A stretch of DNA of 15,433 nt from the IMG/VR virus record IMGVR_UViG_3300014970_000025; one strand, 5' to 3'. Positions 3,923 through 15,433 of the stretch are shown here, one piece after another. The position numbers and the translations under genes are program-made. A model generated the notes under the pieces. That model was given only the letters and a program-made list of their open reading frames with translations, did not search any database and was not told where the DNA came from. Positions within the stretch are counted from its first letter, which is position 1; every line of letters begins with the position of its first letter. This stretch comes from a virus. Lineage: Duplodnaviria > Heunggongvirae > Uroviricota > Caudoviricetes.

Positions 3923-4356
3923 AGAAGGTTTTTATTTTTATGTTGATAGTGATTGCACATTAAAGATTGAAAGCAAATTTAAACATAAATTTTCAACACG
4001 TGAAAGAAACTTGTTCGACAAATAATAGATTGATTTTTAATCAACAATTTCTGATAGTGCTCTGTAAGCCGCATTACACAAGGCTTTGCGAAAGTGATGT
4101 AAAAGTGAAGAAAGCTAACATTGCTCTTTTAAGCCACTTTTCATTGAATTTTTAGTATGGAATTACATAGGGATTAATCATCAATTACATTGAATTTAAG
4201 CCTGTTTTAGATAGCAAGAAACACTTTTACTGATTATAAGAAGATCATTGCACAGATGTTATGTGATGGATGTAACGGTAGGTCACTGTGAACTATCCCC
4301 TACAGAATTTTGTTACCTATTAGATCAACTATCAAACTACAATTAAATTATCTTTT

Positions 4357-4576
4357 ATAAATTCTTTTATCTTTAAAGAATAATTATAGGGATACCCGTT
4401 GGATGTAACGATGGGTTACATCGGCAGATGACCGGGGGGGTCGGTCACGATGACCGGGGGGGGTCGGTCACGATGACTGACAATAAGATTACTTTAATAA
4501 TACTAATAATAAAACTAACATCTATAATACTAATAAATTCTTTTATCTTTTAAGAATAATTATAGGGATACCCGTT
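4357..4576. repeat. 44-bp direct repeat pair (43/44 identical) flanking a hairpin and tandem G-tract palindromes
   Basis: DR1 4357-4400 and DR2 4533-4576: ATAAATTCTTTTATCTTT(A/T)AAGAATAATTATAGGGATACCCGTT. Between them: hairpin GATGTAAC-gatgg-GTTACATC (4402-4422); tandem units GATGACCGGGGGGGTCGGTCAC (4427-4448) and GATGACCGGGGGGGGTCGGTCAC (4449-4471), each containing the palindrome TGACCG-N7-CGGTCA; partial third unit 4472-4480. Confidence 0.8.
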
Positions 4577-4581
4577 AGGGG

Positions 4582-4655
4582 AGTCTAACGACTATCCCTT
4601 AATCTATTGGCATTCGCCAGAACCTTGCACAAGTTAGAGTGTTAGTCGTTAGACT
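4582..4655. repeat. 12-bp perfect inverted repeat AGTCTAACGACT / AGTCGTTAGACT separated by 50 bp
   Basis: Arms at 4582-4593 and 4644-4655. The core CTAACG recurs at 4823-4830 (TCTAACGA) and in a bulged hairpin GCGTTACCCC-ttt-GGGGatgcTAACGC at ~4889-4914. Confidence 0.7.
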
Positions 4656-5183
4656 GCTTGTCATAACACATAGTTTTTGTTTGTTGATGTTAGTTAGTAG
4701 ATCTATGTTCGCTAATGCCGCTCACAACGAATATGTAATCTACTATGTGCAAATAGCCTACGGCTTGCGTAAGGCTAAATAGTCTTGCGCTGTGCGCAGA
4801 ACGATAATTAACTAACTACCATCTAACGATCATCAATCATCTAAAATAAATTTCTTGTGCAATGTTCTTGCGAATGCAATTAGGGTAGCGTTACCCCTTT
4901 GGGGATGCTAACGCATAACTATAGATCAACCATCAAACAGACAAAAAAGAAAAATATGGTTTAAAGATGTTAGGTAGTAGATGAGTTTCTACCGCTTAAA
5001 TCAAGCCGTAGGCGAGCAAAACAACCTCTACATAAGGGAATGTATTGTTTTTATCAAAATCTCGTCAGAATGCGTTTTAGAGCGTTTTAGCGGATAATGA
5101 AGAATAGCACCACACAGGAGAGCACGAATTGATAAGAAAAAATGTAAGCGCATGAAAAAGATCAGGTTTTTTATGAAAAGGTA

Positions 5184-5212
5184 TTGACAAATGTTTCTTT
5201 ATATGTAATAAT
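5184..5212 (+). promoter_or_regulatory. sigma-70-like promoter (TTGACA-N17-AATAAT with upstream TG)
   Basis: TTGACA 5184-5189, TGT then AATAAT 5207-5212; sits ~120 bp upstream of the first gene of a + strand gene cluster. Confidence 0.5.
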
Positions 5213-5330
5213 AGGTATTAAAGGGACAGGAAAATATTCTTATCCTCTAAGTAATTAAACCAATGCACCGCACTTTGAAGCCCAAGGCTTGCAAGGTGTC
5301 TATTTCTTTTAACTGAATAAGGAGTTTTTT

Positions 5331-5513
5331 ATGAAATGGTTTACATCGGAACGCGTCGTAGAGGCATTTAAAAAAGGTGAGCTAACACGACATCAAATAG
5401 TAATGAATCGTAATATGGCAAGGAGTCGAGGTTATCCAGAGCGTGAAAAATGCTTTGACGATGCACTAAAAATTATTGATGAACTGCGTAAGGCAGAGGC
5501 AGAGAAAGAATAA
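5331..5513 (+). CDS. small hypothetical protein (60 aa)
   Basis: Strong SD (AAGGAG, 6-nt spacing) before ATG 5331; product MKWFTSERVVEAFKKGELTRHQIVMNRNMARSRGY..., no family recognised. Confidence 0.55.
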   Translation: MKWFTSERVVEAFKKGELTRHQIVMNRNMARSRGYPEREKCFDDALKIIDELRKAEAEKE

Positions 5514-5534
5514 TAACAAGAGAAGGAGAAAACT

Positions 5535-5705
5535 ATGAGCGAAACTACAGAAAAGAAAAGACAACCACGCACTTGCTTTCATATTCCTGATGAAGTATTT
5601 CAGGTGTTATTTAAAGAAGCAAGAAGTAAACGTATCACTGTTACAGATTACATTCTTGATATGTTGAAAAGAGAGGCTGAAACACTCTCAAATAAAAGCA
5701 AGTGA
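5535..5705 (+). CDS. Arc-like ribbon-helix-helix (RHH) DNA-binding protein (56 aa)
   Basis: SD AGGAG before ATG 5535; below ORF-track cutoff. CFHIPDEVFQVLFKEARSKRITVTDYILDMLKRE aligns by eye with P22 Arc (FNLRWPREVLDLVRKVAEENGRSVNSEIYQRVMESF): beta-strand followed by two helices, RHH pattern. Confidence 0.65.
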   Translation: MSETTEKKRQPRTCFHIPDEVFQVLFKEARSKRITVTDYILDMLKREAETLSNKSK

Positions 5706-5759
5706 TTTTTATCACCATAGTAGCGCCGTAGAGCGTGATTACATACAGGAGATTTTTTA

Positions 5760-6386
5760 ATGATTAACCAACCAACTTTTACAAAACACTATGACACGTT
5801 CGATAACATCTCGAAGATTTACTCTGATAAATTGCCTCAAGGAAAAGATTTAGAGCTATTACACATTGTGCTTTATTTTCGATTTCTTAGTTATCAGGAG
5901 AACAATCTTAATTGTTACGAAAGTCACGAGACATTAGCTAAGATTTTTAAGGCTTCGGTATCAACGATTCAACGTAAGATTAAAGATCTTAAGGAGATGG
6001 GGTTATTAGATACATCCCCGCACTCTGATCCTAACATTACATCCCTTGTTTATACTGCTCTCCCTCTCACAGATGCACACATTACACCACCGGAAGACGT
6101 GAAATTCGCTGTAAACGTAGAACGGGCTGCACCTGAATATCAGGAAACATTAGAAGCGACACACTCTATTGAGCAGGAAACACAGGAATCAGCGTTCCCT
6201 GAGCGGCCCGAAATTTTTACTTGGCTTCTTTCCCTTGATAAGAAGAAACCACCACACGAAGAAACAGAAGATTTTGTAAAACGAGCATTAGATTCAAAGA
6301 ATATCTATCTTTGTGAAAATGATTTTGACTCTTTGATAATTGATCTCAAAAGTGAGAGCACAATATATGATTCACTACCCTTCTAA
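5760..6386 (+). CDS. winged-HTH DNA-binding protein, replication-initiator/organizer-like N-terminal domain (208 aa)
   Basis: SD AGGAG before ATG 5760. N-terminal LLHIVLYFRFLSYQENNLNCYESHETLAKIFKASVSTIQRKIKDLKEMGLLD follows the pattern of phage/plasmid Rep-type winged-helix domains; C-terminal half acidic and unassigned. Confidence 0.7.
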   Translation: MINQPTFTKHYDTFDNISKIYSDKLPQGKDLELLHIVLYFRFLSYQENNLNCYESHETLAKIFKASVSTIQRKIKDLKEMGLLDTSPHSDPNITSLVYTALPLTDAHITPPEDVKFAVNVERAAPEYQETLEATHSIEQETQESAFPERPEIFTWLLSLDKKKPPHEETEDFVKRALDSKNIYLCENDFDSLIIDLKSESTIYDSLPF

Positions 6387-6521
6387 GGAGAATAAATGAC
6401 TTATAACATCACAAACAATCAATAACAACAGATCGGGCAATACATATGGCAAATGCATTTATGGCGATATTCATCGTAACAATGGCATTCAGTTTTTATA
6501 ATCCACATAAAAAGAGGGAAA

Positions 6522-6905
6522 ATGGGAAGAAAGAAGAAGAACAACTTAAAACGTATTGAAAAAAACAGTAACTTCAATTCAACAAGACAACGTCCACCGA
6601 CACACACCAATAACGAAATTCCAGGGGAAGAGATAATATTTATTCTTGAAACAGAATCCCCTGAATTAAGCGATGAAGAATTAGAAATAATCCAGTCAAT
6701 GCCAGGCGTTTACTTTCGCCCAAGAACAAGAAAACAAACTATCATTTCTGATGGCACTCTGAAACGTTGGCAGCTTTTAGGGTTTAGCTCCTATCATCAT
6801 TTTTTGGGATTTAACGCTTTCAATAATTGTGTAGGTGGTGCATCGGAAGTCGATCTGATGGCTCATTTAGAAGATACATTAGCTTCTAACAAACGTTCTA
6901 ACTAA
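6522..6905 (+). CDS. hypothetical protein (127 aa), basic N-terminus and acidic middle
   Basis: SD GAGGG before ATG 6522; no family recognised. Confidence 0.5.
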   Translation: MGRKKKNNLKRIEKNSNFNSTRQRPPTHTNNEIPGEEIIFILETESPELSDEELEIIQSMPGVYFRPRTRKQTIISDGTLKRWQLLGFSSYHHFLGFNAFNNCVGGASEVDLMAHLEDTLASNKRSN

Positions 6906-6920
6906 TAAAATGATGGGCGT

Positions 6921-7166
6921 ATGTATAAGCGCCCAATGAAAATATTCAAAAAAGGAAAAATAATGATTGGCTATATTCAAGAAACACAATTATTTCAGAT
7001 GATCCTGTCTGATGCAAAAAACTATGCTGAGTTAATCCGACTGGCAAAAGAAACAGAAGACTACGAAGCATTAGAGCGTTATCGTGATGAAGTGCTGACG
7101 CTCAAGACACCTTTTAACATCGTATTGAATATGATTAATGATGCATTACAAGGAGAAGCCGCATAA
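6921..7166 (+). CDS. small hypothetical helical protein (81 aa; alternative start 6963 gives 67 aa)
   Basis: Internal ATG 6963 has the better SD (AAGGAAAAATAATG). Stop overlaps the next start (TAATG at 7164-7168), suggesting translational coupling. Confidence 0.45.
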   Translation: MYKRPMKIFKKGKIMIGYIQETQLFQMILSDAKNYAELIRLAKETEDYEALERYRDEVLTLKTPFNIVLNMINDALQGEAA

Positions 7167-7474
7167 TGGAAGAAGATATTAGCAATGCAATGGAACAACT
7201 TTTAGATCTGACTATCTCACTACAAACAAGAATAAATCAAGCCTATTCAGATTTATGTGATTACACGCTCTCTCAATGCGTTATTAGCTTAATGAAGGTG
7301 AATGTAAGCCTTGACGATTTTATCTCTCTGGTGAGCGATTTAGAGCTATCAGAGGACGATGCAAAACAGTGTAATCAAATCATCACAGACATCGCCACCA
7401 CGTTAAAGGTTGCAAGTGAAGAGATTCAGCAATTAGTAGATGATTTAGCAAAAAGTGCTATTTTCTCTAAATGA
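7166..7474 (+). CDS. acidic helical hypothetical protein (102 aa)
   Basis: Start overlaps the upstream stop; product rich in D/E/L/I; no family recognised. Confidence 0.55.
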   Translation: MEEDISNAMEQLLDLTISLQTRINQAYSDLCDYTLSQCVISLMKVNVSLDDFISLVSDLELSEDDAKQCNQIITDIATTLKVASEEIQQLVDDLAKSAIFSK

Positions 7475-7487
7475 TAATGAAAATTAT

Positions 7488-7516
7488 TTGCATTTATAAT
7501 GATTTTGTTATATAAT
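7488..7516 (+). promoter_or_regulatory. near-consensus sigma-70 promoter (TTGCAT-N17-TATAAT)
   Basis: TTGCAT 7488-7493, TATAAT 7511-7516, plus a second TATAAT at 7495-7500; followed by ~0.9 kb without any + strand ORF above ~25 codons. Confidence 0.5.
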
Positions 7517-8401
7517 AATTTTAGGGGTAGATAAAAAGATTTTAGTTGGTGTTAATCCTTCTACTGTCATAAATCCCTGCATATGGAAGGTGATAGCCTC
7601 AAAGGTTGAGTGGCATTAACCTCTAACAAATATTACCTTCCATCTCTCAAGAAGTTTTAGAATAATCATAACTCCCTCTTTGATTGTTGATTGTTTCTAC
7701 GTTGTGTTGATGAATGTTGTTAGGCATTGTGCTTAATTTTGATAAAAGCGGGTAGGTGTTATCTCCTTGCCCTTCCCGCTCTTATTTTTCATCTATGCTT
7801 ATCCTAAAGCTCCTTATTTTGTCCGAAAACATTAAAGAGCCTTACACTGATAGTTATATTTTATAACTATTTACTAACATCATTAAACTCTTATTTAATG
7901 ACGGAAGTTAGTAACAGAATAATCTATTAAGTTGTTGTCAAAAAACTATCATCTGCATAGCGTTAGCCGCAAGTAGAGAGAGTTTAGCTAAGAATGGTGC
8001 AATAAACTTTGGAAATATTGATAGCAAAACGGGTTTTATAGAATGCGGATCTATAAGCTTTGGTTGTAAAAACGATTTTCTGAAACGGTAGATTACTGTT
8101 GGTGTAGTTAATCCTATTAAAATTTGATCTGTGAGTAGATTAGAATTGGAATAGTGATTCCTTAAAGCCTTACTTTGTTGCATCCACAGCAAAAACAGGC
8201 AGCGGTTTAGCCCCCGCATCGAATAGCAGGATCGTAGATTCCAAAGGGTTGGCCCCTCCTAAGAGCCAATTTCTCCTGCGGTCCTGTTATTCACCCTTAA
8301 CATATCTCTAAGCGTATTTATAAAAGTATTCTTAGAGATAACGTTAAACCTCCTCAAAGTTGACTTATCACAATATGTATTTTGCCCGATACAAAATAAA
8401 T

Positions 8402-8452
8402 AAGCCCCTTGCTATTGTTGATTGAACCTCTTATAGCCTGGGGCTTTTTATT
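8402..8452 (+). terminator. stem-loop followed by T-run (possible intrinsic terminator or RNA 3' structure)
   Basis: AAGCCCC (8402-8408) pairs with GGGGCTT (8440-8446), followed by TTTTATT; loop is long (31 nt) so classification is tentative. Confidence 0.3.
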
Positions 8453-8480
8453 ACTCGGAACATAACGGAATCGTTATTTT

Positions 8481-8690
8481 ATGAAACAAGAAATTATCCT
8501 GAAATATGGCAATGAAAAGTTAACACTAACTGAGGATGTGTTGAATGCTACAGCCTACGCGCTTGGCATCACTCCTACAGAATTAAAGAAACAGTGTGAA
8601 CGTCTTTATAAGGCTGACAGCAATAAACCATCTCACCAAGATTTGATTAATGCTAAAGCTCAACAAATCAAACAATCTAAGGAAAAATAA
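8481..8690 (+). CDS. small hypothetical protein (69 aa), possible HTH-like segment
   Basis: Stop overlaps the start of the next gene (TAATG at 8688-8692). Segment ATAYALGITPTELKKQ is HTH-like. No family assigned. Confidence 0.5.
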   Translation: MKQEIILKYGNEKLTLTEDVLNATAYALGITPTELKKQCERLYKADSNKPSHQDLINAKAQQIKQSKEK

Positions 8691-9064
8691 TGGCTATTTT
8701 AAAATTAAGCGATGTTTTCCCACATCGTAAAAGCATCACTGACGTAGTGAGCTATGCAACCGACCCTTACGCGGCTGTAGAAAGCAAAAAATTTGCAGCA
8801 CTTGCACAAGATGTAACGTGCGGCGACCTCATTGATTCATCCGGCGCTAAATATGTTAGCGGCGCTGATGTTCTTGTCGTTGTGTCTGACTTCGTAACTG
8901 CTGATTCAAATAAAACAGTTAACGTGCTTCGTGCTAATGCCGGACTCGTTTGCATCAAAGCTGATGCCCTGAATGCCGAAGGCGCTGTAAAAGAAGCTGC
9001 TATTGCAGCTCTCGCTGCTAAAGGCTTCCAGCTTGAAGGCTTCCACTCTGTTTTCACATCTTAA
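8690..9064 (+). CDS. putative head decoration protein (lambda gpD/SHP-like position and size, 124 aa)
   Basis: SD AAGGA; lies immediately upstream of an E-like major capsid gene, as D does in lambdoid head modules; size typical; Ala/Val/Gly-rich. Assignment rests mainly on synteny and composition. Confidence 0.45.
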   Translation: MAILKLSDVFPHRKSITDVVSYATDPYAAVESKKFAALAQDVTCGDLIDSSGAKYVSGADVLVVVSDFVTADSNKTVNVLRANAGLVCIKADALNAEGAVKEAAIAALAAKGFQLEGFHSVFTS

Positions 9065-9080
9065 GAAGGAATAAATAATA

Positions 9081-10109
9081 ATGATTATCGGAAATGAAGT
9101 GGTTGATCTTGCTCCACTGTTTGAATTAAACGATACCCGTAACTATCTGCTGTCTACTCTGGATTTTACTGATCCTGTGCCTGTAGAAAGTCACAAAGTG
9201 GCTGTTTCCCAGCTTATCGAGAGCAATGAATCTCTGTTCAACCATCCTACAAGCCGTTTTAGCTCTGAGCATAACGTTACTAAACGTGAAAACGCGGAAG
9301 AGTGGCTGATTGAAATTCCTTATTTCCTGCGTGAAGACCTGATCACACCGCAGGACGTGCAAGGCAAACGAAAAGCCGGAAGCTCTATTGAAGAAACACT
9401 GCCGGATCTGTATGCGGAATATATCGCTAAACACAATGTTGCATTCCAGCGCACTAAAGAAAGCATCCTCGCGGCTTCTCTGTTCTCTGGCAAGACGCAT
9501 ACCCCGAAAACTGACGATGTTCTGATCGACTACAGCACTCTGTTCGGTGTGTCTCCAATGACTGCAACCGTTGACGCATCCAGCACCAACACAATGACTG
9601 TGTTCAAACAGTTTGACCAGATGCATACGGATATGATTGCTAAAGCACAAAGCCAGGCTGCAACCATTGAGCGTGTTGTTGTGTTCTGTAAGCCTGCGGC
9701 ATTCAACGCTATTCGTTACAGCGTTGGCATGGTTAATGCGTTCCAATATGCAAGCCCTGTAGACGATGCAAACGTGGTGTTTAATGTGCGCTCTCTGCTG
9801 CCTGGTGTAACTACTTTCACCATTCCAGGAACTAACATTGATCTGATCAAAGTGACTGATCCGCTGCTGCTGGCACATATGACCGCAGACGCTGTAGCTG
9901 TTCCTAAATTCGCTAAAGGTGCAGGTGTTTACCAATCTATTTATGGCGCTCCTTCCAGTTCCTTCGATCTGCTGTCTCAAGGCGCTAAAGAGTATTACAG
10001 CTATGCTTTCGAATCGAATCGCGGCGACGCAGTGCACGTAGTGACCGAGAATAGCTCGCTTGTGGTTAACCACGGTGTTGGCTTCTCTGTGCAGATCACA
10101 GTAGCGTAA
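9081..10109 (+). CDS. phage major capsid protein, lambda gpE-like family (342 aa)
   Basis: SD AAGGAA; length nearly identical to lambda gpE (341 aa); C-terminus ...VVNHGVGFSVQITVA resembles gpE ...DPDEFVSVQLA and internal ERVVVFCKPAAFNAIRYS resembles gpE NIIVFDPKGWALFRSF (by recall). Confidence 0.8.
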   Translation: MIIGNEVVDLAPLFELNDTRNYLLSTLDFTDPVPVESHKVAVSQLIESNESLFNHPTSRFSSEHNVTKRENAEEWLIEIPYFLREDLITPQDVQGKRKAGSSIEETLPDLYAEYIAKHNVAFQRTKESILAASLFSGKTHTPKTDDVLIDYSTLFGVSPMTATVDASSTNTMTVFKQFDQMHTDMIAKAQSQAATIERVVVFCKPAAFNAIRYSVGMVNAFQYASPVDDANVVFNVRSLLPGVTTFTIPGTNIDLIKVTDPLLLAHMTADAVAVPKFAKGAGVYQSIYGAPSSSFDLLSQGAKEYYSYAFESNRGDAVHVVTENSSLVVNHGVGFSVQITVA

Positions 10110-14488: not shown

Positions 14489-14528
14489 AGAAAATGATTA
14501 TTTTTCTATAAGATTCAATCAATTAGTA

Positions 14529-14591
14529 ATGGTCGTAGGTGATGGCATTAACACGAGATTAATCGAGTGTTTTACTCCTATTATCGCACCA
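14529..14591 (+). pseudogene. degenerate tRNA-Thr 3'-end copy (ptwF-like att remnant)
   Basis: GGTCGTAGGT (14531-14540) ... ACTCCTATTATCGCACCA (14574-14591) matches the thrW 3' end except for a ~33-bp insertion replacing the T-loop and one missing G; same orientation as the 2339-2384 copy. Confidence 0.6.
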
Positions 14592-14717
14592 TTAAAATCA
14601 AAGAGTTACCCCATATTTAAATACACCACGTTTCCTCCTGTGCCGCATTTGTGCCATTGTAACCTTGGCAATTCATCAAAATACTGTTCTGACATCAGGC
14701 AGTGCAGGTGCAGCTAT

Positions 14718-15128
14718 TTAAACCAATTGCTGCCGCCATTCTTTGACGTAGTCAATCAGGGCGCGGAGCTTTGGTGCAATATTGCGACGCTGTGGGAAAT
14801 ACAGATAGAAGCCCGGAAATTGTGGAAGAAAGTCATCAAGCAGCGATACAAGCTTACCGCTTTCAATATATGGCCTGAAAGTTTCCTGAGTGGCAATTGT
14901 TATTCCTCCGCCGGCAAGAGCCAGCCTCAACATCAGACGCAGATCATTAGTCGTAATCTGCGGTTCAATCGCAAGGTCGAAAGTTCTCCCGTTTTCTTCA
15001 AATGGCCAGCGATAAGGCGCAACCTCCGGGGACTGACGCCAGCCGATACACTTATGGGTATTTCCCCCGGAGGCGAGAAAGCGCTCTCCACGCCCGGCCG
15101 CAAGGATCAGGACGACGGGGGCAGGCAT
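14718..15128 (-). pseudogene. LysR-family transcriptional regulator, C-terminal substrate-binding-domain fragment (no HTH)
   Basis: C-terminus ...LALAGGGITIATQETFRPYIESGKLVSLLDDFLPQFPGFYLYFPQRRNIAPKLRALIDYV is a typical LysR C-terminal end. The N-terminal HTH is absent because the upstream gene ends at ~15104. Consistent, from memory, with the yagP pseudogene next to ptwF in E. coli K-12. Confidence 0.65.
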
Positions 15129-15433
15129 GAATCCTCCTCCTGATGGAGACGTACAGAGGCGACTTCTGCCAGCACGGAGAGTGCCAGAGTATGCGCATCC
15201 CGGGCTTTGGGGAATATCCCGACGGGTGCCCGGATTTGCGTTGTTTCCTCCCTGGACCATCCCAGCTCGTGGAGCTTTTGCAGACGTAACGTGTGGGTTC
15301 GATAGCTGCCCAATGCGCCGAGATAAAAGGGTTTTGCTTCTCGCGCGGCCTGCAACACTGGCAGCTCCCGGTTGAGATCATGGCACAGCAAAATGACCGC
15401 CGTGTCGGTATCGATCTGAGCGCTGGCTGAGGC
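15104..15433 (-). CDS. XdhC/CoxI-family molybdenum-cofactor insertion chaperone (PaoD-like), C-terminal part; gene continues beyond window end
   Basis: Minus-strand frame is open to the window edge: ...DTDTAVILLCHDLNRELPVLQAAREAKPFYLGALGSYRTHTLRLQKLHELGWSREETTQIRAPVGIFPKARDAHTLALSVLAEV, characteristic of XdhC C-terminal domain; GC-rich, core-genome-like composition. Confidence 0.7.

What the first reader, a model, noticed from the sequence alone, without database searches (positions are those of the whole stretch)
7488..8452. ~0.9 kb ORF-free interval between a near-consensus promoter and a terminator-like stem-loop: candidate large ncRNA
TTGCAT-N17-TATAAT at 7488-7516 is followed by about 930 bp in which the longest + strand ATG ORF is ~23 codons; the only listed ORF (7938-8219, minus strand) has no Shine-Dalgarno. 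The interval contains a 9-bp inverted repeat ATGGAAGGT/ACCTTCCAT (7583-7643), the repeated motif ATTGTTGATTG (7681-7691 and 8412-8422) and ends in a stem plus T-run (8402-8452), just upstream of the head genes. It could be a regulatory or structural RNA, or a long 5' leader controlling head-gene expression.
Basis: seen in the sequence. Interest (0 to 1): 0.65.

Follow-up and report, generated by a model that had tools for sequence, protein, structure and literature searches.

The report
Structured RNA leader before capsid genes
A conserved, protein-free 1-kb stretch in a phage-satellite-like island of E. coli is a promoter-driven, hairpin-rich RNA leader with two built-in terminators that most likely gates the island's capsid genes, and part of it is a structured RNA motif not found in Rfam.

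Summary
Window 7475-8480 has no conserved ORF. It starts with a near-consensus sigma-70 promoter and ends in a hairpin plus T-run just before the capsid-module genes. About 5% of complete E. coli genomes carry it, and none has a CDS annotated there. Promoter to T1 defines a roughly 265-nt RNA, "module 1". Downstream lie more hairpins and a 145-nt multi-stem domain, "module 2" (8154-8298). Module 2 shows strong covariation: 96% of cells paired against 32-48% in slid controls, and 16 of 32 pairs changed on both sides. It has 31 G:U cells against one A·C cell, so the + strand RNA is the selected molecule. Rfam has no match. Distant relatives of the island keep the same layout with different sequence: strong promoter, structured RNA, terminators, then late genes with no promoter of their own. 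The best reading is a lambda PR'-tR'-like late-operon leader opened by processive antitermination, with a terminated short RNA as by-product. The antiterminator and the role of module 2 are unknown. Trans-acting sRNA or sensor roles are not excluded.

The parts
7488..7516 (+). Near-consensus sigma-70 promoter (TTGCAT-N17-TATAAT). The predicted start is about 7523 (AGGGGUAGAU...).
   Evidence: A near-consensus promoter sits at the same place in all island lineages: TTGACT/TATAAT in L039 and TTGACA-N17-TAATAT, TATAAG or CATAAT in groups C, D and E. The -35/-10 spacer is the most variable part of the promoter region.
7523..7789 (+). Module 1: a predicted ~265-nt RNA from the promoter to terminator T1.
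   Evidence: Its fold z-score is -3.7. It is the most conserved segment among E. coli copies, with 2.1% mean pairwise difference against 5.6% in the upstream ORF.
7523..7580 (+). 5' stem-loop domain. It contains the hairpin UUAGUUGGUGUUAA (7542-7555), followed by AUCCUUCU, and is closed by AGGGG/CCCU.
   Evidence: The RNAalifold hairpin is kept through G:U-mediated one-sided changes. The closing stem has a different sequence in L014 (GGGGC/GCCCC) and in L039/L077 (AGAAUCG/CGAUUCU; GAAUAG/CUAUUC).
7583..7643 (+). Variable hairpin (ATGGAAGGTGATA ... TATTACCTTCCAT).
   Evidence: repeat I7. It is deleted in L014 and replaced by an unrelated hairpin (GAAAGCG...CGCTTTC) in L039.
7680..7737 (+). U/G-rich stretch with TTGATTG x2, followed by the small hairpin GGCAUUGUGCUU (about 7720-7736).
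   Evidence: The copy number varies; L010 has 3 copies. The GCAUUGUGC hairpin and the UUGUUUCU..GUGU stretch are also present in group D leaders.
7744..7789 (+). Intrinsic terminator T1 (AAAAGCGGG...CCCGCUCUU plus a U-run).
   Evidence: RNAfold gives -17.9 kcal/mol. L014 and L039 have unrelated stems at this position, each followed by CUUUUU on the + strand. In L014 there is no T-run on the minus strand.
7848..7914 (+). Two spacer hairpins, 7850-7870 and 7871-7914. They are lineage-specific.
   Evidence: (repeats I19, I13, I2). They are not conserved in L014 or L039.
8088..8162 (+). Two further copies of the 5' motif (GUAGAU..UUGG..U(U/G)AAUCCU), at 8088-8115 and 8135-8162.
   Evidence: Direct repeats D1, D2 and D6. 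UCCUAUUAAAAU is conserved in L014 and L039, and as UCUUCUAUUAAUA in group D.
8154..8298 (+). Module 2, a multi-stem RNA domain. P0 is 8167-8170/8197-8200. P1 is 8174-8180/8187-8193, with its loop inside the invariant UGCAUCCACA. P2 is 8202-8205/8214-8217, with loop UAGCC. P3 is 8221-8237/8276-8292. An interior GAUUCC lies at 8237-8242. P4 is 8249-8253/8265-8269, with loop CCCUCCUAAGA.
   Evidence: There are 15 sequence variants with the same fold. P3 has 16-17 contiguous pairs and four unrelated arm sequences. In the count, 96.3% of cells are paired against 32-48% in slid controls, and 16 of 32 pairs changed on both sides. Covariance model R1 scores 86-172 bits in 20 loci of groups A and B. 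Rfam has no match.
8303..8340 (+). Two-tier hairpin H5.
   Evidence: repeat I4. The same architecture appears with different sequence in L003, L004 and L039.
8349..8355 (+). Second anti-Shine-Dalgarno-like motif (CCUCCUC).
   Evidence: CU-rich anti-SD-like motifs recur in the leaders of all groups, for example CUUCUCCUCCUUAAG in group C and CAUUCCUCCUUAAAUG in a hairpin loop in group D.
8402..8452 (+). Intrinsic terminator T2 (AAGCCCC...GGGGCUU plus UUUUUAUU).
   Evidence: The stem is replaced in a compensatory way in other lineages: AUCCCCC/GGGGGAU, AAAGCCCC/GGGGCUUU and GCCGGAAG/CUUCCGGU. A U-rich tail on the + strand is kept in all of them.
8462..8477 (+). Small hairpin or palindrome AUAACG-GAAU-CGUUAU, 3 nt before the start codon.
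   Evidence: Group D has GUAACG-CUUU-CGUUAU at the equivalent position.
8481..8690 (+). First gene of the late (capsid) module, 69 aa. It has no recognisable Shine-Dalgarno sequence, and the 28 nt after T2 leave no room for a promoter.
   Evidence: It is followed by a 124-aa ORF and a gpE-family major capsid protein at 9081-10109 (PF03864, E = 9e-19).

Best explanation
The interval is the transcribed, untranslated control region of the island's late (capsid/tail-like) operon. It is built like the PR'-tR' late leader of lambdoid phages.

A strong sigma-70 promoter fires into a highly structured RNA. Most transcripts stop at terminator T1, giving a short RNA of about 265 nt. Any read-through meets a second terminator, T2, placed 28 nt before the first late gene. 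That gene has no promoter of its own.

Late genes are therefore expressed only when RNA polymerase is made termination-resistant by processive antitermination. The factor could come from a helper phage or from the island's own early operon.

The conserved RNA elements are the 5' stem-loop motif repeated before each terminator, module 2, and the hairpin-presented CU-rich loops. I infer that they are recognition, loading or stabilising elements of this switch.

Shown here: the absence of coding potential, the + strand RNA structure, the two terminators, the promoter consensus, and the conservation of this layout across divergent lineages. Inferred: promoter activity, termination efficiency, antitermination and the identity of the factor.
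For: 1. Non-coding status. No CDS is annotated under the interval in about 270 E. coli genomes, and no ORF is conserved there.

2. RNA structure on the + strand. Module 2 is 96.3% paired against 32-48% in slid controls, and 16 of 32 pairs changed on both sides. P3 is kept as 16-17 pairs with four unrelated arm sequences, 20 G:U instances and no A·C.

3. Terminators. T1 and T2 keep a hairpin plus a + strand U-run although the stems are entirely replaced in L014, L003, L004 and L039. In L014, T1 has no minus-strand T-run.

4. No alternative promoter. The only strong promoter is at the 5' end. The scan finds nothing convincing between T1 and the late genes, and only 28 nt separate T2 from the ATG.

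5. Conserved layout. Groups B to E (58-80% identical capsid protein) show the same order: near-consensus promoter, then an AGGGU start, then structured RNA, then one or two terminators, then a small hairpin, then the first late gene. Their leaders are 330-690 nt long. In group D, 28 of 87 predicted pairs show compensatory change.

6. Precedent in lambda. The real lambda Q-S region has the same anatomy: PR', the 6S RNA, tR', about 300 nt of spacer, a second hairpin plus T-run, then S.

7. Precedent for by-product and RNA-based systems. The terminated PR' transcript of Stx phages is itself a regulatory sRNA, StxS (PMC7547250). RNA-based or protein-plus-RNA processive antitermination exists in HK022 put (PMC9378689) and conAn (PMC8191782).
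Against: No antiterminator has been identified. None of the upstream ORFs matches a Q or N family in Pfam, PHROGs or NCBIfam.

The leader has no detectable sequence similarity to any phage in the 50,697-record collection. The conserved promoter-proximal motifs were found only in members of this island family. There is thus no evidence that a helper phage shares a Q-binding or pause element with it.

The -10-like element near +6 (TAGAUA) is imperfect.

A simple read-through leader would not obviously need a 145-nt domain with invariant loops.

No transcript data were available, so promoter activity and termination are predictions.
Confidence: 0.5

Rival explanations
1. The interval encodes trans-acting regulatory RNAs. 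Module 1 would be a stand-alone ~265-nt sRNA made constitutively. The module 2 to T2 segment would be a second RNA. They would act by base pairing on host, helper-phage or island mRNAs, for instance through the hairpin-presented anti-Shine-Dalgarno-like loops (CCUCCUAAGAG, CUCCUU) or the U/G-rich stretch. The roles could be helper interference or maintenance of quiescence, as with the CI RNA of satellite P4. This can coexist with the leader model.
For: Module 1 has its own near-consensus promoter and its own intrinsic terminator with a U-tail. It is more conserved than the flanking coding sequence. CU-rich loops complementary to AGGAGG are displayed on hairpins in every lineage. The StxS precedent shows that a PR' by-product RNA can be a functional sRNA (PMC7547250).
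Against: No target was found. The exact complement CTTAGGAGG occurs nowhere else in the window, and near-matches are at chance level (28 found, 30.7 expected). No convincing, conserved promoter precedes module 2; the TTAAAA-N18-TAGAAT match at 8117-8146 is weak and not conserved. There is no match to the C4/CI antisense family or to any Rfam sRNA. In module 2 the stems vary and the loops are fixed, which is the opposite of what antisense specificity types usually show.
Confidence: 0.2
2. Module 2 is a sensor domain, riboswitch-like or binding a protein, tRNA or other RNA. Its bound state would decide whether T2 terminates. The island would then read a cellular or helper-derived signal directly in its leader RNA.
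For: Module 2 shows the classical signature of such domains. Its stems covary, while its loops and junctions are invariant (UGCAUCCACA, UAGCC, GAAUA/UAUUC, GAUUCC, CCUAAGAG). It lies upstream of an intrinsic terminator and a coding operon.
Against: About 100 nt and another hairpin (H5) separate module 2 from T2. I found no alternative (antiterminator) pairing that is conserved across lineages: a GGCCCC/GGGGCU option exists in the window type only. Model R1 finds module 2 only in groups A and B, although groups C to E have the same terminator layout. It is therefore not essential to the switch.
Confidence: 0.12
3. The conserved features act at the DNA level, as a replication origin, a packaging (cos/pac) site or single-strand initiation hairpins, rather than as RNA.
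For: The interval lies between a replication-initiator-like gene and the capsid genes, where phage cos/pac sites often sit. It contains short tandem TTGATTG repeats, many palindromes and AT-rich DNA.
Against: Helices keep pairing through G:U but not A·C (31 cells against 1). This is strand-specific and expected for RNA, or at most for one DNA strand. Hairpins followed by + strand U-runs are conserved. There is no lambda-type cosN in the interval. More iteron-like repeats lie elsewhere in the island, at 4427-4477.
Confidence: 0.06
4. The interval is decayed coding sequence or a mosaic junction with no function of its own.
For: Fragments of a minus-strand ORF share short peptide stretches between copies. 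The 3' part is mosaic and hypervariable.
Against: No frame is conserved, and no homolog appears in Pfam or PHROGs. Compensatory substitutions maintain more than 30 base pairs. Module 1 is more conserved than the neighbouring genes. A non-coding gap exists at this position in every lineage.
Confidence: 0.03

Closest known systems
Lambdoid late-gene control region (PR', 6S RNA, tR', with Q antitermination), including the StxS sRNA of Stx phages
   Same: Both have a constitutive-looking sigma-70 promoter directly upstream of the late genes. Both have a short terminated RNA of about 200-270 nt, then a further untranslated stretch with a second hairpin plus T-run, then the first late gene. In both, the region sits just after the early or replication genes (compared). 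StxS shows that the terminated RNA can have a function of its own (PMC7547250).
   Different: No Q gene or Q-family domain lies upstream. There is no sequence similarity to any phage leader. No Q-binding element is recognisable. The leader is longer and contains a covarying multi-stem domain with no counterpart in lambda; R1 finds nothing in the lambda locus. The host element is a ~12-kb island without terminase or portal genes, not a phage.
HK022 put RNA, and the conAn bipartite system of Gram-positive conjugative elements (RNA-dependent processive antitermination)
   Same: In these systems, structured nascent RNA in the leader of a mobile element's operon makes RNA polymerase read through several downstream terminators (PMC9378689, PMC8191782). 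Here structured RNA elements precede each terminator.
   Different: put is a ~70-nt two-hairpin element. The fold of module 2 (P0/P1, P2 and a 17-bp P3 capped by P4) is different. No functional test is possible with these tools. Module 2 lies after T1, so it could only act on T2.
Lambda N / nut (boxA plus boxB) antitermination
   Same: A small protein conserved across the island family (127 aa, 6522-6905) has a Lys/Arg-rich N-terminus predicted to be disordered, and it is encoded upstream of hairpin-rich leader RNA. A boxA-like octamer, CGCTCTTA, occurs at 7776-7783.
   Different: The octamer is part of the T1 stem and is not conserved in L014 or L039. No boxB-type hairpin was identified. The protein matches no N family, and its model is of low confidence (pLDDT 54).
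Immunity RNA of satellite P4 (CI RNA; Rfam C4 antisense RNA family)
   Same: Both are satellite-type elements in which the leader RNA of an operon carries the regulatory information, and termination is the output.
   Different: No Rfam hit was found, even at E <= 10. The repeated motifs here are direct repeats with no complementary partner in the leader.
Large structured ncRNAs of phages and prophages (ROOL, GOLLD and similar)
   Same: Both are long, ORF-free, structured RNA regions within mobile elements.
   Different: No match to any of the 4,227 Rfam models. This region is a chain of local hairpins and terminators rather than one large globular fold.

Membership tests
Q-dependent lambdoid late promoter region (PR'/qut-tR') | Strong sigma-70 promoter immediately upstream of the late operon | tested here: met
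   TTGCAT-N17-TATAAT lies at 7488-7516. Near-consensus promoters sit at the same position in groups B to E. Promoter activity itself was not measured.
Q-dependent lambdoid late promoter region (PR'/qut-tR') | Intrinsic terminator(s) downstream that truncate the transcript before the late genes | tested here: met
   T1 (7744-7789) and T2 (8402-8452) are conserved through stem replacement, with + strand U-runs kept.
Q-dependent lambdoid late promoter region (PR'/qut-tR') | Q antiterminator gene adjacent and upstream | tested here: not met
   No Q-family hit for ORFs 5331-7474 in Pfam, PHROGs or NCBIfam.
Q-dependent lambdoid late promoter region (PR'/qut-tR') | Q-binding element plus a sigma-dependent promoter-proximal pause element | tested here: inconclusive
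   -10-like hexamers lie near +4 to +12: TAGATA in group A, TAGAAT in B, GATTAT in C and GAGTAT in D. No known Q-binding element is present, and pausing cannot be tested with these tools.
Q-dependent lambdoid late promoter region (PR'/qut-tR') | Sequence homology to phage late leaders | tested here: not met
   No blastn match in 50,697 phage records. The conserved promoter-proximal motifs recover only island copies from IMG/VR.
HK022 put-type cis-acting antiterminator RNA | About 70 nt of nascent RNA forming two adjacent stem-loops upstream of the terminators it suppresses | tested here: inconclusive
   Structured elements do precede T1 and T2, but their folds differ from the two-hairpin put layout. 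The function cannot be tested with these tools.
N/nut antitermination | Conserved boxA (CGCUCUUA) followed by a boxB hairpin, and an N protein with an arginine-rich motif | tested here: not met
   The boxA-like octamer at 7776-7783 is not conserved in L014 or L039. No N-family hit was found. Only a basic N-terminus in the 127-aa protein resembles N.
C4/CI antisense RNA (P1, P7, P4); any Rfam sRNA, riboswitch, ribozyme or large ncRNA | Match to the family covariance model | tested here: not met
   There were 0 matches at gathering thresholds over the whole window. Only chance-level matches (E of 1 or more, 12-19 bits) appeared in 7400-8520.
Riboswitch-like cis-regulatory leader | Covarying stems with invariant junctions and loops, upstream of an expression platform whose alternative pairing is conserved | tested here: inconclusive
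   The first part is met for module 2. I found no conserved antiterminator/terminator alternative (inspection). Module 2 is absent from groups C to E.
Structured non-coding RNA (generic) | Base pairs maintained by compensatory substitutions beyond controls, with strand-specific G:U tolerance | tested here: met
   The covariation score is 0.468 against 0.178 in shuffles (0 of 500 reach it) and 0.102 or less in slid controls. There are 90 cells changed on both sides. There are 31 G:U cells against 1 A·C cell.

The most novel reading that the evidence does not exclude
Module 2, together with the repeated 5' stem-loop motif, could be a new class of RNA element through which a phage-satellite-like island controls its capsid operon without a Q or N protein. 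One possibility is a put-like, factor-independent antiterminator RNA. Another is a sensor RNA that detects a helper-phage or host signal. A third is that the constitutively made, terminated RNAs carry 16S-tail-like CCUCCU loops that act in trans on translation of helper or host genes. About 5% of E. coli genomes, including ST131, O104:H4 and avian pathogenic lineages, would then carry an unrecognised RNA regulator.
Probability: 0.2. Interest if true: 0.8.

Novelty: new variant of a known kind. Interest (0 to 1): 0.6.

Why it matters
The island family is uncharacterised. It carries a gpE-like capsid protein, a tape-measure-like protein and a Dit-like protein, but no terminase or portal. It sits in about 5-6% of complete E. 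coli genomes, including clinically important lineages.

If the model is right, the leader is the switch that couples the island's structural genes to a helper phage or to the island's own early genes. That would give a direct experimental handle on how this element is mobilised or interferes with phages.

Independently of mechanism, module 2 is a well-supported structured RNA motif in E. coli that matches no Rfam family. The promoter-proximal ~265-nt RNA is a candidate abundant sRNA in carrier strains, by analogy with StxS. Both predictions can be checked in existing RNA-seq data.

Tried and rejected
- **Rfam.** The gathering-threshold search of the whole window and the permissive search of the interval returned nothing usable. 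The tRNA/tmRNA scan found none.
- **Hidden or frameshifted gene.** ORFs were compared across 16 copies and no frame is conserved. The 93-aa and 108-aa minus-strand ORFs have no PHROG or Pfam hit.
- **Similarity to phages.** Megablast and blastn against the phage collection found no match.
- **Search for a helper phage sharing the promoter-proximal motifs.** Two pattern scans of IMG/VR recovered only island copies and chance matches.
- **The one genome-contig scan.** It was run with the 102-aa protein and returned only E. coli.
- **lambda-type cosN.** There is none in the interval. An 11/12 match at 8818-8829 lies inside the 124-aa ORF and is not conserved.
- **Target search for the anti-SD-like loop.** Matches were at chance level.
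- **Module 2 in groups C to E or in lambda.** Model R1 found nothing there.
- **Structure of the conserved 127-aa upstream protein.** The AlphaFold2 model has pLDDT 54, too poor for a fold search, so I did not pursue it. Its homologs are all unnamed hypothetical proteins.
- **boxA-like octamer, riboswitch-type alternative pairing, and a promoter in front of module 2.** I considered each and set it aside because it is not conserved between lineages.
- **Literature searches.** Searches for the island or its proteins found nothing specific.
Full report
**Where the window comes from.** Window 7400-8500 is 100% identical to the chromosomes of E. coli SF-088 and PE144. It matches 282 of 5,426 complete E. 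coli genomes at 80-100% identity, nearly always once per genome.

The surrounding ~12-kb element sits next to different tRNA genes in different strains: thrW, glyU and leuX. One copy is on a plasmid. The element encodes, in order:
- small ORFs;
- an HTH_36 protein that resembles a replication initiator (5760-6386);
- three small unknown proteins;
- the interval under study;
- ORFs of 69 aa and 124 aa;
- a gpE-family major capsid protein (9081-10109);
- a tape-measure-like protein of 613 aa;
- a Dit-like protein;
- a tyrosine integrase on the other strand.

No terminase or portal was seen. I treat it as an uncharacterised phage-satellite-like island. Literature searches found no description of it.

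**The observation.** Consensus matches alone are no more frequent than in shuffled sequence. An ORF-free kilobase in 33% GC DNA is also not remarkable in itself. What makes the interval significant is comparative evidence:
- In about 270 genomes PGAP annotates no CDS under it.
- The only sizeable ORF (93 aa, minus strand) is broken or frame-shifted in other copies and has no family hit.
- Rfam and tRNA searches are empty.

**An internal terminator.** Reading divergent copies shows a second hairpin plus T-run at 7744-7789, which I call T1. In strain H22 (L014) and in a second lineage (L039) the stem is a completely different sequence. A strong hairpin followed by CUUUUU on the + strand remains in both. 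In L014 the minus strand has no T-run.

The terminal terminator T2 (8402-8452) behaves the same way. Its stem is AAGCCCC/GGGGCUU in the window, AUCCCCC/GGGGGAU and AAAGCCCC/GGGGCUUU in two other group A variants, and GCCGGAAG/CUUCCGGU in L039. The interval is therefore promoter, a ~265-nt RNA (module 1), T1, about 610 nt more, and then T2. It is not one unit.

**RNA structure.** Both strands fold better than shuffles (z = -3.3 to -4.6), so folding energy does not decide the strand. Covariation does.

A 145-nt segment, module 2 (8154-8298), occurs in 15 sequence variants that all fold the same way:
- a nested hairpin P0/P1 whose loop lies inside the invariant UGCAUCCACA;
- a hairpin P2 with loop UAGCC;
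- a 16-17-bp helix P3, whose base is the conserved GAAUA/UAUUC, with an interior GAUUCC;
- a small apical stem P4 presenting the loop (C)CUCCUAAGAG.

P3 exists with four unrelated arm sequences and is uninterrupted in every variant. Positions 6-16 each show two to four pair types.

I built a covariance model from five in-register sequences (R1) and aligned 20 loci to it. On that alignment 96.3% of cells are standard pairs, against 32-48% when partners are slid by one to three columns. Sixteen of 32 pairs have changes on both sides, in 90 cells. The covariation score is 0.468 against 0.178 in shuffles, and none of 500 shuffles reaches it. This alignment is fitted to the model, which favours the structure. 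A plain MAFFT alignment of P0-P2 gives the same picture (94.5% paired), as does my register-free count for P3.

Wobble pairs are all G:U on the + strand: 31 cells against a single A·C cell in one singleton variant. The selected molecule is therefore + strand RNA, co-directional with the flanking genes.

The other hairpins behave alike:
- H5 (8303-8340) keeps a two-tier architecture with different sequence in three other lineages.
- The 5' domain of module 1 keeps the hairpin UUAGYUGGYGUUAA through wobble-mediated changes. Its closing stem differs between lineages.
It is deleted in L014 and replaced in L039.

**Pattern of diversity.** Among E. coli copies module 1 is the most conserved segment, with 2.1% mean pairwise difference against 5.6% in the upstream ORF. 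The promoter spacer (11%), module 2 (18%) and H5-T2 (20%) are hypervariable yet structure-preserving. Lineages are mosaic: L014 is close to the window in module 2 but distant in module 1.

**Relatives.** Capsid-protein searches of IMG/VR and metagenomes gave about 90 loci in five groups, at 58-100% capsid identity. Every group has a CDS-poor gap at the same place. Measured from promoter to ATG, it is about 1,000 nt in group A, about 875 nt in B, about 330 nt in C and 510-690 nt in D and E.

All groups show the same order of parts:
- a near-consensus sigma-70 promoter;
- a transcript starting about AGGGU;
- hairpins;
- CU-rich motifs resembling the 3' tail of 16S rRNA, displayed in loops or single strands (for example CUUCUCCUCCUUAAG);
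- one or two hairpin plus U-run terminators;
- a small UAACG-loop-CGUUA hairpin;
- the first late gene, with no room for another promoter.

Group D leaders are themselves structured: 87 consensus pairs, 28 with compensatory change. They share short motifs with the window, namely the GCAUUGUGC hairpin, YUGGY..AAUCYUUCUAUUAA and UAGAUAA. Module 2 as modelled is confined to groups A and B.

**Mechanism.** The anatomy is that of the lambdoid late control region. I fetched the lambda Q-S region. There PR' is followed by the 6S RNA and tR', then about 300 nt of spacer, then a second hairpin plus T-run, then S.

In Stx phages the terminated PR' transcript is a functional sRNA, StxS (PMC7547250). RNA-dependent processive antitermination is known from HK022 put (PMC9378689) and from the conAn system of conjugative elements (PMC8191782).

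I therefore propose that the promoter fires constitutively, that T1 and T2 stop transcription, and that late genes are expressed only when polymerase is made termination-resistant. This step is inferred, and I could not identify the factor:
- No Q or N family is present upstream.
- No phage shares the promoter-proximal motifs.
- The one upstream protein conserved in all groups (127 aa, basic N-terminus) gave only a low-confidence model, with a disordered N-terminal 45 residues.

The role of module 2 and of the CU-rich loops is also open. The candidates are a loading site, a processing or stability element, a sensor, or a trans-acting seed. A target search in the window was at chance level.

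**Rivals.** Trans-acting sRNA roles are compatible with the data and with the StxS precedent. A riboswitch-like role for module 2 fits its conservation pattern, but it lacks a conserved alternative pairing and the domain is absent from groups C to E. DNA-level roles (ori, cos) are disfavoured by the strand-specific G:U pattern and by the conserved U-runs. No lambda-type cosN lies in the interval. Decayed coding sequence is excluded by the absence of any conserved frame together with the compensatory substitutions.

**Verdict.** The finding is real and more interesting than a chance gap. It is a conserved, structured, + strand RNA control region of about 930 nt. It contains an RNA domain that matches no Rfam family, and it belongs to a common but undescribed E. 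coli island. It is best described as a new variant of the promoter-terminator-antitermination leader known from lambdoid phages. All functional statements await transcript mapping and reporter tests.

Noticed in passing
window 4155-5331: This is a second stretch without any ORF of 50 aa or more. It contains a ~35-nt direct repeat, TTCTTTTATCTTT(T)AAGAATAATTATAGGGATACCCGTT, at about 4364-4400 and about 4539-4577; its ATAATTATAGGGAT part resembles the leader's -10/start region. It also contains a 23-nt tandem repeat, GATGACCGGGGGGGGTCGGTCAC x2.3, at 4427-4477, which is iteron-like or hairpin-like and could be an origin or a binding array. A likely early promoter, TTGACA-N17-TAATAG, lies near 5186-5214.
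   Followed up: partly
window 7527, 8088, 8135, 8234 (+); also 4697, 4738(-), 4977, 7436: The hexamer GTAGAT occurs 9 times in the window, which is not significant overall (6.5 expected). Five copies lie on the + strand within 7436-8239, four of them inside the leader. The related UAGAUAA also occurs in group D leaders. Its meaning is unknown; it could be a -10-like pause element or a binding site.
   Followed up: partly
window 6522-6905: This 127-aa ORF is conserved in all five island groups at 27-50% identity. It has a Lys/Arg-rich N-terminus (MGRKxRNxxxRIEK) and a conserved PGVFWKPRKRK...WQILGF core. It has no family hit. Its AlphaFold2 model is poor (pLDDT 54), with a disordered N-terminal 45 residues. 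It is a candidate nucleic-acid-binding regulator.
   Followed up: partly
window 5331-5513: This 60-aa ORF is conserved in the island groups. It has a weak, sub-threshold match to NCBIfam NF058537, 'RNA-binding regulator' (E = 0.005; 17 bits against a cutoff of 100).
   Followed up: no
window 8818-8829: GTGCGGCGACCT matches the lambda cohesive-end sequence GGGCGGCGACCT at 11 of 12 positions. It lies inside the 124-aa ORF. About 0.07 such matches are expected by chance in the window, but it is absent from the other island groups, so it is probably chance.
   Followed up: yes
whole window; loci L001-L003, L012, L039: The island family encodes a gpE-like capsid protein, a 124-aa protein at the gpD position, a tape-measure-like protein and a Dit-like protein. 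No terminase or portal was seen. It is integrated at thrW, glyU or leuX, once on a plasmid (pEND_Eco 19019-1), and in some strains twice or three times. The replication-initiator-like HTH gene is replaced by a LexA-family regulator in some copies (L003, L040).
   Followed up: partly
L001 5806-7034; L040 6182-7344: IS elements interrupt some copies. In SF-088, IS2 is inserted upstream of the HTH gene. In strain ET734, IS3 is inserted about 115 nt into the leader, truncating the island there.
   Followed up: no
window 14529-15433: The GC-rich right end, beyond the integrase, looks like host chromosome. It contains the C-terminus of a LysR-type regulator and overlapping spurious ORFs. The island's right boundary therefore lies near 14500.
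   Followed up: no
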